DNA of 30,159 nucleotides from the IMG/VR virus record IMGVR_UViG_3300050821_010409, positions 1-30,159 of that record, one strand, 5' to 3'. Shown piece after piece: positions 14,299 to 15,029 of the stretch. The position numbers were made by a program, and so were the translations under genes. The notes under the pieces were generated by a model, which worked only from the letters and a program-made list of their open reading frames with translations, was not told where the DNA came from and did no database searches. The stretch's first letter is position 1; each line of letters starts with the position of its first letter. This stretch comes from a virus (lineage: Duplodnaviria; Heunggongvirae; Uroviricota; Caudoviricetes).

Positions 14299-14448
14299 TG
14301 GGCAGCGGGAGACTTGAACTTCCGAAGCGCGAGAAGAAAAAGGGTCTTCTCTGCCATGCGCCGTGCCTGCCCGGTGACAGGAGCGGTGGTGAAGCGTGAA
14401 GTACACATTTCTCCGCTCCCCGAGCGCCGGGCAATTCCTGGCCTGCCC
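14299..14448 (-). ncRNA. tRNA/tmRNA-like structured RNA, copy T1
   Basis: Acceptor GGGCAG/CUGCCC+A, T-arm cggaag-UUCAAGU-cucccg (one mismatch), two long internal arms; homologous to T2 and T3. Confidence 0.6.
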
Positions 14449-14488
14449 TTGTTTCTTTTATTCAGTTTATGCTTCACGATCCCGCTGG

Positions 14489-14515
14489 CTGGCCGAGGTC
14501 TTCTGGCGGCACGTG
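14489..14515 (-). ncRNA. Single TIGR-like unit between structured RNAs
   Basis: tggctggcc gaggtcttc tggcggca; coordinates approximate. Confidence 0.5.
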
Positions 14516-14532
14516 CTTATTCAGTGGTGAGC

Positions 14533-14644
14533 GCCCTCGCCGTATCCGCCTTCCGTGCGCTCGTGCATGTCAGTTGACGCACCCGATGCAGGCGGCTATT
14601 GTAACCGGCAGTTGCCTAACCGTGGAGGTCCGGCCGGCGAGGGC
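14533..14644 (-). ncRNA. Multi-stem structured RNA X1
   Basis: Closing stem gccctcgccg/cggcgagggc; conserved blocks shared with X2. Confidence 0.5.
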
Positions 14645-14648
14645 CTCG

Positions 14649-14813
14649 TGGGCAGCAGGAGAGTCGAACTCCTGAAGGCACGGAAAAGCATCCTGCTAAT
14701 TAGAAGCCTTCCCTGGCGTGCGCCTTGCCTGCCCGGTGACAGGAGCAGAGAGCTGAGACTGGATTTCTCCAATAAGCCTGCTCCCCGAACGCCGGGCAAT
14801 TCCTGGCCTGCCC
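14649..14813 (-). ncRNA. tRNA/tmRNA-like structured RNA, copy T2
   Basis: Acceptor GGGCAG/CUGCCC+A, T-arm caggag-UUCGACU-cuccug, arm GCCCGG..GGGAGCAG/CUGCUCCU..CCGGGC. Confidence 0.7.
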
Positions 14814-14840
14814 TTGTTCCCCTTATTCAGTTGTCTTGCG

Positions 14841-15004
14841 TGGACAGCAGGAGGATCGAACTCCTGAAGGCACGGGAAGAGATTGTAGTGTAAGGCCCTT
14901 CCCTGGCGTGCGCCTTGCCTGCCCGGTGACAGGAGCGGCGAGGATCACATGAATGTTGCTGTGTGATTCCGCTCCCCGAACGCCGGACAATTCCTGGCCT
15001 GCCC
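14841..15004 (-). ncRNA. tRNA/tmRNA-like structured RNA, copy T3
   Basis: Acceptor GGGCAG/CUGUCC+A (third pair G.U), T-arm caggag-UUCGAUC-cuccug; compensatory change relative to T2. Confidence 0.7.
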
Positions 15005-15029
15005 TTGTTCTCCTTATTCAGTTATCGTG

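What the first reader, a model, noticed from the sequence alone, without database searches (positions are those of the whole stretch)
14299..15023. Three tandem tRNA/tmRNA-like RNAs with a fixed scaffold and two variable arms, inside the TIGR locus
Seen (- strand): each copy has a conserved leader AACUGAAUAARRRRAACAA, a 6-bp acceptor GGGCAG/CUGYCC plus discriminator A, and a stemless GG-containing D-like loop (GCCAGGAAUU). Arm 1 is GCCCGG-internal loop-GGGAGCRG with a 26-30 nt variable tip. Arm 2 has an 8-18 nt variable tip, then a 6-bp T-arm with a UUCRANY loop. Compensatory changes (GGGAGCAG/CUGCUCCU vs GGGAGCGG/CCGCUCCU; GGGAAG/CUUCCC vs GAGAAG/CUUCUC) and G.U pairs support folding on this strand. 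Acceptor plus T stem totals 12 bp, as in tRNA. T3 has G3.U plus discriminator A, the established AlaRS identity set. There is no anticodon loop and no tmRNA tag ORF. Inference: an unassigned ncRNA family. Options are RNase P/Z processing punctuation for the guide transcript, decoys for anticodon nucleases or other tRNA-sensing defences, or a second programmable RNA whose variable tips carry specificity.
Basis: partly seen in the sequence, partly recalled or inferred. Interest (0 to 1): 0.88.

Follow-up and report, generated by a model that had tools for sequence, protein, structure and literature searches.

The report
tRNA-shaped RNAs punctuating phage guide arrays
Three copies of a previously undescribed 150-165-nt tRNA-shaped RNA sit inside the TIGR guide-RNA arrays of an uncultured soil phage, most likely so that the host's tRNA-processing enzymes cut or cap the long guide transcripts, though this function is untested.

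Summary
Three minus-strand elements (15004-14841, 14813-14649, 14448-14299) fold into one four-way junction. It has a 6-bp acceptor, a 3-bp D-like stem with an AGGAAU loop carrying a long inserted arm, a second long arm and a 6-bp T arm with a UUCRA loop. ARAGORN and Rfam do not recognise them.

Full-length homologues exist in two related metagenomic phage contigs. Cut-down versions of 70 and 47 nt occur in two more phage lineages. All lie at the same place, inside the arrays upstream of a TasA gene that is 71-89% identical. Fourteen base pairs show double compensatory changes, against 0-3 in slid controls.

The cut-down versions keep only the AACUGAAUAA leader, acceptor, GG loop and T arm. 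Real tRNAs or other tRNA-like elements occupy equivalent positions in related arrays.

My best reading (about 45%) is a tRNA-mimic punctuation module that recruits RNase P and 3'-end enzymes to array transcripts. It would be a natural counterpart of plant tRNA-snoRNA precursors and of engineered tRNA-guide arrays.

The variable tips look unconstrained, not programmed. The G3.U/A73 alanine identity set occurs in one copy only. Processing is untested.

The scan had noted similar minihelices elsewhere in this same genome.

The parts
14841..15004 (-). T1, tRNA-shaped RNA (164 nt). It is the only copy with G3.U70. The discriminator is A, followed by CG.
   Evidence: (R1 180.8 bits)
15005..15023 (-). 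T1 leader, AACUGAAUAAGGAGAACAA: single-stranded, A/purine-rich, ending at the proposed RNase P site.
14649..14813 (-). T2, tRNA-shaped RNA (165 nt), 27 nt downstream of T1.
   Evidence: (178.6 bits)
14814..14832 (-). T2 leader, AACUGAAUAAGGGGAACAA.
14299..14448 (-). T3, tRNA-shaped RNA (150 nt), with array units on both sides.
   Evidence: (153.8 bits)
14449..14467 (-). T3 leader, AACUGAAUAAAAGAAACAA.
15234..15346 (-). X2: conserved promoter-like region plus leader that starts the sub-array ending in T1-T2.
   Evidence: (D19)
14533..14644 (-). X1: second copy of the promoter-like region plus leader, between T2 and T3.
15030..15200 (-). TIGR sub-array (AGCCAGCCA / UGCAGCCA repeats, 32-nt period) directly upstream of T1.
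   Evidence: found in soil RNA-library contigs
14056..14290 (-). TIGR sub-array directly downstream of T3.
13498..14076 (-). Conserved accessory ORF of about 180-190 aa and unknown fold. It lies directly upstream of TasA in 9 loci.
13062..13495 (-). TIGR sub-array between the accessory ORF and TasA.
12137..13033 (-). TasA-like protein: Nop/IS110-C-terminal-type domain, with no match to a nuclease domain.

Best explanation
T1-T3 belong to a new family of tRNA-mimic cloverleaf RNAs that are transcribed as part of the phage's TIGR guide-array precursors.

Shown:
- They are structured RNAs under purifying selection, read on the minus strand, and always embedded in arrays next to one TasA clade.
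- They keep what tRNA-end readers recognise: a 12-bp acceptor/T stack (6+6), a G1-C72 closing pair, a UUCRA T loop, a GG-bearing D-like loop that could form the elbow, a purine discriminator followed by C, and an unstructured A-rich 5' leader.

Inferred:
- Host RNase P cuts at G+1 and releases the upstream array segment with the AACUGAAUAA... tail.
- RNase Z or exonucleases trim after the discriminator and free the downstream segment.
- The element thus divides the long promoter-leader-array transcripts into units with defined ends. Before cleavage it may shield them from exonucleases.
- The excised 150-165-nt RNA is a stable by-product, or has a secondary role through its two conserved arms.
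- TasA itself would still do the unit-by-unit trimming of tigRNAs.
For: Structure:
- Each copy folds into the same four-way junction.
- In the 5-sequence alignment 97.5% of cells are paired. Fourteen pairs changed on both sides, against 0-3 for slid controls and 0 of 500 shuffles reaching that count.
- Arm 1 covaries, GCCCGG/CCGGGC to GCCUGG/CCAGGC in L139.

Fixed position:
- The window, L138, L139, L151 and L178/L179 share the order leader-array-T-array-accessory ORF-array-TasA.

The minimal core is what survives:
- L151 (70 nt) and L178/L179 (47 nt) have lost the arms. They keep the AACUGAAUAA leader, the GGGCAG/CUGCCC-type acceptor, an AGG/GG loop and the T arm.

The slot is interchangeable:
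- L138 has a different 97-nt tRNA-like element in mid-array.
- L151 has a second minihelix after ACUGAACAAGGA.
- L145 has three tRNAs interleaved with canonical UG...CCA units.

Other support:
- The same 6+6 plan with an A-CG trailer occurs between ORFs at 120 kb in this genome. The phage therefore uses such elements on transcripts generally.
- Arrays flanking the T elements occur in contigs from four soil RNA libraries.
- Precedent: engineered t-elements release crRNAs through RNase P and RNase Z (PMC6546412). Plant tRNA-snoRNA precursors are processed by RNase Z (cited in PMC12045711).
Against: - No cleavage data exist.
- A bare punctuation signal does not need 100 extra nucleotides. Yet unpaired bases in both arms (AGGAA, CGUUC, UGUCRCC, GCAYG) are conserved across relatives whose TasA is only 71% identical. 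The full-length form probably does something more.
- Three copies, two of them in direct tandem, exceed what punctuation needs.
- In L139 a promoter-like repeat flanks the element, so there it may be a separate small-RNA gene.
- Position -1 is A, not the U that RNase P prefers (my own knowledge).
- Relatives with TasA at 65% identity or less lack the family altogether, so it is dispensable for TIGR function.
- Dual-repeat Tas proteins process their own guides with a Y/H dyad (bioRxiv 10.64898/2026.09.09.750476). I could not settle whether this TasA has that dyad.
Confidence: 0.45

Rival explanations
1. The element is an autonomous functional RNA. The tRNA-like core only matures and stabilises it, as in a natural 'tRNA scaffold'. 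The two conserved arms bind a phage protein (TasA or the ~180-aa accessory protein), or present their variable tips for base pairing, making it a second specificity-bearing RNA of the system.
For: - Unpaired nucleotides in the arm bases and internal loops are strictly conserved between the window, L138 and L139.
- The window has three copies with 83-91% identical scaffolds but tips of random-level similarity.
- The tips are AU-rich and partly single-stranded in a 65% GC genome.
- L139 has a promoter-like motif directly upstream.
Against: - L151 and L178/L179 keep TasA, the accessory ORF and the arrays but have lost one or both arms.
- The tips have no match longer than 10 nt in the phage genome, no better than shuffled tips.
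- Scaffold identity levels off at 77-80% even between phages, so old duplicates with neutral tips explain the contrast without any programming.
- No UG...CCA guide motifs flank the tips.
Confidence: 0.2
2. The element is a structural cap. A compact tRNA-like fold inside or at the end of array transcripts blocks 3'-5' and 5'-3' exonucleases, or stands in for the usual rho-independent terminator, without being cleaved out.
For: - T2 and the L138 copy sit at the end of a unit, directly before the next promoter-like X region, with no U-tract terminator.
- TIGR arrays normally end in a terminator (PMC12045711).
- The L138 array that carries the 97-nt element still ends in a classical terminator.
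Against: - T3, L151, L178 and L139 are followed by further array units, so they are internal, not terminal.
- A plain hairpin would serve as a cap, which leaves the specific tRNA features (T loop, GG loop, 12-bp stack) unexplained.
Confidence: 0.15
3. The element is a tRNA mimic that acts on host tRNA biology. It could be a decoy or sponge for anticodon nucleases or other tRNA-sensing defences. It could also be a substrate for the CCA-adding enzyme or an aminoacyl-tRNA synthetase, in a tmRNA-like or viral-TLS-like way.
For: - It has an acceptor, an elbow and a discriminator.
- One copy has G3.U70 plus A73.
- L139 encodes G-CCA after the acceptor.
- Related phages carry PTH2 and tRNA genes nearby.
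Against: - The identity elements are not conserved: G3.U occurs in 1 of 5 and the discriminator is A or G.
- There is no anticodon loop for anticodon nucleases to bind.
- There is no tag ORF, and ARAGORN and Rfam give no tmRNA call.
- The element lies inside arrays behind the same leader motif in every locus where it was found, which a free-standing decoy would not need.
Confidence: 0.1
4. The elements are decaying tRNA pseudogenes or insertion relics with no present function.
For: - Shrunken versions occur in L151 and L178, and their T loops deviate (CUCGACA, UCCGAUU).
- L151 has an A.C mismatch in the acceptor.
Against: - Fourteen compensated pairs and 97.5% pairing.
- A conserved leader motif.
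- A conserved syntenic position in phage lineages whose TasA is only 71-89% identical to the window's.
Confidence: 0.1

Closest known systems
Dicistronic tRNA-snoRNA precursors of plants (RNase Z processing; Kruszka 2003, cited as ref. 66 in PMC12045711)
   Same: A tRNA fold is co-transcribed with box C/D-type guide RNAs that a Nop-domain protein uses. tRNA enzymes define the ends of the guides.
   Different: There the tRNA is a real, decoding tRNA in a eukaryote. Here the element has no anticodon loop, carries two long expansion arms, lies in a phage, and no processing has been shown.
Engineered t-elements and polycistronic tRNA-guide arrays (Haloferax icrRNA system, PMC6546412)
   Same: tRNA-like structures flank guide RNAs so that RNase P and RNase Z release them without the system's own nuclease.
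   Different: Those are man-made. This would be a natural case. It would punctuate whole sub-arrays, not single guides.
Canonical tRNA (Rfam RF00005) and the tRNA-like domain of tmRNA
   Same: A 12-bp acceptor/T stack, a UUCRA T loop, a GG loop, a purine discriminator and no encoded CCA.
   Different: The stack is split 6+6. There are no connector nucleotides and no anticodon stem-loop. A long hairpin is inserted in the D loop. There is no tag ORF. ARAGORN and Rfam do not detect it.
Dual-repeat tigRNA units of TIGR-Tas (PMC12045711)
   Same: Same transcripts and the same locus. GCCAGG-type motifs recur in the bulges of both arms.
   Different: There is no UG...CCA repeat pair flanking 9-nt spacers. 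It is 150-165 nt long, not 36 nt.
tRNA-like minihelices at 120 kb in the same phage genome
   Same: A 6+6 stack, a UUCRA loop and an A-CG trailer. The 64-nt copy has the same cloverleaf plan with an AGCC-AGGCAA-GGCU D arm.
   Different: They lie between protein genes, not in arrays. They lack the AACUGAAUAA leader and the long arms, and model R1 did not hit them at E<=1.

Membership tests
tRNA (RF00005 / ARAGORN) | Acceptor plus T stem forming a 12-bp coaxial stack, with a UUCRANY T loop | tested here: met
   6+6 bp in all five full-length members. The T loops are UUCGAUC, UUCGACU, UUCAAGU, UUCGAUU and UUCGACU.
tRNA (RF00005 / ARAGORN) | Anticodon arm: 5-bp stem and 7-nt loop with U33 and R37 | tested here: not met
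   Arm 2 is 14-15 bp with a 6-nt bulge and a 7-22-nt loop. The only 7-nt loop (T3, CCCUUUU) has C33 and U37.
tRNA (RF00005 / ARAGORN) | D arm with a G18G19 loop | tested here: inconclusive
   GCC/GGC (3 invariant pairs) closes a loop that starts AGGAA and carries arm 1. The GG is invariant, but contact with the elbow cannot be tested.
tRNA (RF00005 / ARAGORN) | Recognised by tRNA detectors | tested here: not met
   ARAGORN finds none. Rfam has nothing at gathering score. The only hit is tRNA-Sec at 16.6 bits, E 3.7, on half of T2.
tmRNA | G3.U70 alanine identity, tag reading frame and pseudoknots | tested here: not met
   G3.U occurs in 1 of 5 members. ARAGORN calls no tmRNA or tag. No Rfam tmRNA hit at E<=10.
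tigRNA (dual-repeat TIGR unit) | Alternating repeats that start UG and end CCA, around two spacers of about 9 nt, in a 36-nt unit | tested here: not met
   This is true of the flanking arrays but not of the T elements.
RNase P/Z-processed tRNA-like punctuation elements (t-elements, tRNA-snoRNA, mascRNA type) | Acceptor/T minihelix with elbow, placed between co-transcribed functional RNAs | tested here: met
   Array units lie within 20-70 nt on both sides of T3, L139, L151 and L178. Arrays lie upstream and the next leader downstream of T1-T2 and of the L138 copy. Co-transcription is inferred from strand and spacing.
RNase P/Z-processed tRNA-like punctuation elements (t-elements, tRNA-snoRNA, mascRNA type) | Actual endonucleolytic cleavage at +1 and after the discriminator | not testable with these tools
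   Only assembled RNA contigs were available, and none covers 14260-15044.
Bacterial Y RNA (YrlA) | Match to the Rfam YrlA model | tested here: not met
   No Rfam YrlA hit at E<=10. Here the RNA ends form the acceptor itself. I did not look for an rsr gene.
IS110 bridge RNA | Two internal loops carrying target and donor guides, next to a DEDD/Tnp recombinase | tested here: not met
   The variable parts are terminal tips. The internal loops are invariant. The profile of the neighbouring protein matches only Nop/C-terminal-type regions of 9mty and TasH.

The most novel reading that the evidence does not exclude
The full-length T RNA is a second, scaffolded effector RNA of this TasA clade. Its tRNA core gives maturation and stability. 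Its conserved arm loops dock TasA or the ~180-aa accessory protein. Its two hypervariable tips supply sequence specificity, making it a dual-tip counterpart of the dual-spacer tigRNA or of a bridge RNA.
Probability: 0.1. Interest if true: 0.9.

Novelty: new variant of a known kind. Interest (0 to 1): 0.6.

Why it matters
How long TIGR array transcripts are started, ended and cut into usable pieces is still partly open. The founding paper and the 2026 follow-up both leave room for host ribonucleases. A natural tRNA-mimic module inside guide arrays would show that phages found the 'tRNA-guide array' design that genome engineers invented. It would link TIGR biogenesis to RNase P and RNase Z, echoing the tRNA-snoRNA precursors of eukaryotes. 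It would also give a compact natural part for multiplexed TIGR-Tas expression. Independently of function, it adds a new structured RNA family with covariation support. Its well-conserved expansion arms hint at an unknown binding partner.

Tried and rejected
Collection scans
- Exact-pattern scans of viral, metagenome and genome collections returned only chance hits in coding DNA, or nothing. One pattern was too strict: L138 has a 1-nt deletion in the core.
- Relatives of the 310-aa upstream protein (phrog_10079) carry no T element in 15 IMG/VR loci.
- The single-protein searches for TasA and the accessory ORF found no IMG/VR relatives. The 25 distant Tas loci found with the TasA alignment carry no T element.
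- There is no similar DNA in 50,697 cultured phage records. The only Tas relative there is Arthrobacter phage Talia1610, at 36% identity.
- R2 found nothing in the 151 actinobacterial genomes searched.

Tests of alternative readings
- Tips against the phage's own genome: the longest matches are 9-10 nt, equal to shuffled tips.
- Alternative pairing of the internal GGGCAG with the 3' end would give an 84-86-nt tRNA-sized half. I rejected it because L139 compensates arm 1 instead.
- Consensus promoter and terminator scans found nothing useful on the minus strand.
- The accessory protein model has pLDDT 72 and no PDB fold match at E<=0.001.
- I could not decide whether the Y/H processing dyad is present. 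The profile alignment stops at TasH residue 279.

RNA libraries
- Contigs from four soil metatranscriptomes cover the arrays but not 14260-15044. Because these are contigs, and the three copies are repeats, this is no evidence about T expression.

- Three contigs (P0003, P0021, P0045) and the longer of the two P0026 contigs had no retrievable DNA.

Full report
**Setting**

The window is the first 30 kb of a 122-kb IMG/VR virus record, estimated 81% complete. Earlier notes of this scan describe it as a soil actinobacterial phage. The region 12-16 kb is read on the minus strand and is largely non-coding. It is filled with a 32-nt-period repeat of alternating AGCCAGCCA and UGCAGCCA blocks. These blocks have the UG...CCA signature of dual-repeat TIGR arrays (PMC12045711).

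The 298-aa ORF at 13033-12137 has 57 metagenomic relatives. Their profile matches two solved Tas-type structures: 9mty at E 2e-14 and TasH at E 5e-7. Neither match covers a nuclease domain, so the 'TIGR locus' context holds and the protein is TasA-like.

**The observation**

Three elements on the minus strand share one scaffold. T1 is 15004-14841, T2 is 14813-14649 and T3 is 14448-14299.

Each folds alone into the same four-way junction. Its parts are:
- a 6-bp acceptor, GGGCAG/CUGYCC;
- GCC/GGC closing a loop that begins AGGAAU and carries a long arm 1, with a conserved non-canonical internal loop and a variable tip;
- arm 2, of 7 bp, a 6-nt bulge, 7-8 bp and a variable loop;
- a 6-bp T arm with a UUCRANY loop, then a purine discriminator.

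The folds beat shuffled sequence, with z-scores of -2.7 to -4.2. For T2 the minus strand is 12 kcal/mol better than the plus strand. Several conserved G.U pairs would be A.C mismatches on the other strand.

Each element follows AACUGAAUAA plus about nine purines. That 9-mer class occurs 4 times in the genome against 0.24 expected, and three of those sites are the T leaders.

ARAGORN and Rfam do not recognise the elements. Gene callers left the equivalent regions of the relatives empty.

**Relatives**

A covariance model built from the three copies found nothing else in the genome. Fetching contigs that encode close TasA relatives gave several hits.

| Locus | Position | Length | Score | TasA identity to window |
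|---|---|---|---|---|
| L138 | 8555-8712 | 158 nt | 121 bits | 89% |
| L139 | 8924-9079 | 156 nt | 109 bits | 71% |
| L151 | 4306-4375 | 70 nt | E 0.007 | 71% |
| L178/L179 | L178 2099-2145; L179 2255-2301 | 47 nt | E 1e-5 | 74% |

All lie in the same slot: promoter-like leader X, array, T, more array or the next X, a conserved ~180-aa ORF, array, TasA.

The family was not found in any of the following:
- loci with TasA at 65% identity or less;
- 25 distant IMG/VR Tas loci;
- 15 loci of the upstream phrog_10079 protein;
- cultured phages;
- the 151 actinobacterial genomes sampled;
- exact-pattern scans of three collections, which gave only chance hits.

The family is real but narrow.

**Structure support**

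On the five full-length members 97.5% of cells are paired. Fourteen of 49 pairs changed on both sides. Controls with the 3' partner slid by 1-3 columns give 0-3, and no shuffle of 500 reaches 14. The sample is five sequences and the alignment was fitted to the model, so this supports the fold but does not prove it.

One change is informative. The internal GGGCAG could pair with the 3' end to make a tRNA-sized 85-nt half. L139 instead compensates arm 1, changing GCCCGG/CCGGGC to GCCUGG/CCAGGC, which favours the four-way junction.

The acceptor helix shows only one one-sided change (the G.U in T1), and the GCC/GGC helix never varies. These two helices rest on energy and analogy alone.

**What varies and what does not**

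Scaffold identity is 83-91% among the three copies and 77-80% to the two relatives. The tips are no more alike than shuffled sequence.

Scaffold identity hardly falls further between phages than it does within the window. The simplest reading is strong constraint on the scaffold and none on the tips. Directed diversification is not needed to explain it. The tips have no match in the phage genome beyond 9-10 nt, the same as shuffled tips.

The unpaired scaffold bases (AGGAA, CGUUC, UGUCRCC, GCAYG) are conserved, so the arms of the long form are not mere filler.

**Why I favour punctuation**

- The two shrunken relatives keep exactly the parts that tRNA-end enzymes read: the leader motif, acceptor, a GG loop and the T arm. 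TasA, the accessory ORF and the arrays stay intact there.
- The slot accepts other tRNA shapes. L138 has an unrelated 97-nt tRNA-like element in mid-array. L151 has a second minihelix behind ACUGAACAAGGA. In L145 three tRNAs, including a normal tRNA-Lys, alternate with canonical UGAUAGCCA-N9-UGCCA-N9 units.
- This phage also places 6+6 minihelices with the same A-CG trailer between protein genes at 120 kb. One is a 64-nt miniature of the T plan, with an AGCC-AGGCAA-GGCU D arm. This fits a general use on polycistronic transcripts.
- Precedents exist. Engineered t-elements release crRNAs through RNase P and RNase Z (PMC6546412). Plant tRNA-snoRNA precursors tie box C/D guides to RNase Z (reference list of PMC12045711).
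- An earlier, unchecked note of this scan reports a CPR TIGR array fused to a tRNA gene.

**What argues against it, or for more than it**

- The conserved arms, the three copies, the tandem T1-T2 pair and a promoter-like repeat (TGTTATACTGTAAGAGAC type) on both sides of the L139 copy suggest an RNA with a job of its own.
- Dual-repeat Tas proteins can trim their own guides through a Y/H dyad. Punctuation would therefore act only at the level of sub-arrays.
- I could not tell whether this TasA has the dyad.
- No end-mapping data exist. Contigs from four soil RNA libraries cover the flanking arrays but not the T region, which is uninformative for repeated, structured RNAs.

**Comparison and verdict**

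T is not a tRNA, because it has no anticodon arm and is not detected by tRNA tools. It is not a tmRNA, because it has no tag and G3.U occurs in only one copy. It is not a tigRNA, a bridge RNA or a Y RNA either.

It works most like a tRNA-type processing or end-defining module. It is a new RNA family, and the first such element described inside TIGR arrays.

| Claim | Confidence |
|---|---|
| Selected, structured tRNA-mimic RNA linked to this TasA clade | about 0.9 |
| Main role is RNase P/Z-type punctuation | about 0.45 |
| Independent protein-binding or base-pairing RNA | 0.2 |
| Uncleaved protective cap | 0.15 |
| tRNA-biology decoy | 0.1 |
| Relic | 0.1 |

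Noticed in passing
window 15346-15234 and 14644-14533 (minus); L138 8160-8260 and 8745-8830; L139 8690-8810; L151 4040-4120; L178 1880-1960; L149 200-270: A conserved ~110-nt promoter-like region plus structured leader (CCGGUUACAAnAGCC, GCCUGCUUCGGGYGCG ... 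GCRCGGAAGGCGG) precedes sub-arrays in each of these six loci (two copies each in the window and L138).
   Followed up: partly
window 14146-14177 and 15364-15395: This is an exact 32-nt repeat inside the arrays. In soil RNA-library contigs it is joined to many different flanks, so it seems to be a conserved unit shared by several related phages.
   Followed up: partly
window 13498-14076 (minus) and 8 related loci (alignment A5): A ~180-aa protein is always encoded directly upstream of TasA in this clade. It has no Pfam or PHROG hit. The AlphaFold model has pLDDT 72 and no PDB fold match. It is a candidate Tas accessory protein.
   Followed up: partly
G000 120206-120160 and 120052-119989 (minus; L177 1660-1707 and 1490-1553): Two tRNA-like elements with a 6+6 stack and an A-CG trailer lie between protein genes. 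The 64-nt one is a miniature cloverleaf with the same plan as T.
   Followed up: partly
L139 8895-8915 and 9085-9105; L149 3-20; window 10225-10243: A shared phage promoter-like motif (TGTTATACTGTAAGAGAC, an extended -10 type) stands before the T element and the next array in L139, at an array start in L149, and before the window's tRNA-Ile.
   Followed up: no
L145 12150-13030: In a TasA relative at 50% identity, three tRNA genes alternate with canonical TIGR units (UGAUAGCCA-N9-UGCCA-N9). Two are called as CUA-anticodon 'Pyl' tRNAs and one is tRNA-Lys. An ACUGAAUGC motif plus a hairpin lies upstream.
   Followed up: partly
L138 14510-14606: A 97-nt tRNA-like element (7+5 stack; ARAGORN calls it 'His GUG', with an odd length and a long extra arm) sits in the middle of a TIGR array that ends in a classical terminator.
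   Followed up: partly
L149 480-620: A ~105-nt insert closed by an 11-bp long-range helix (GAACGGCCCGC/GCGGGCCGUUC) interrupts the array of a 65%-identity TasA relative that has no T element. It may be a different structured RNA in the same role.
   Followed up: no
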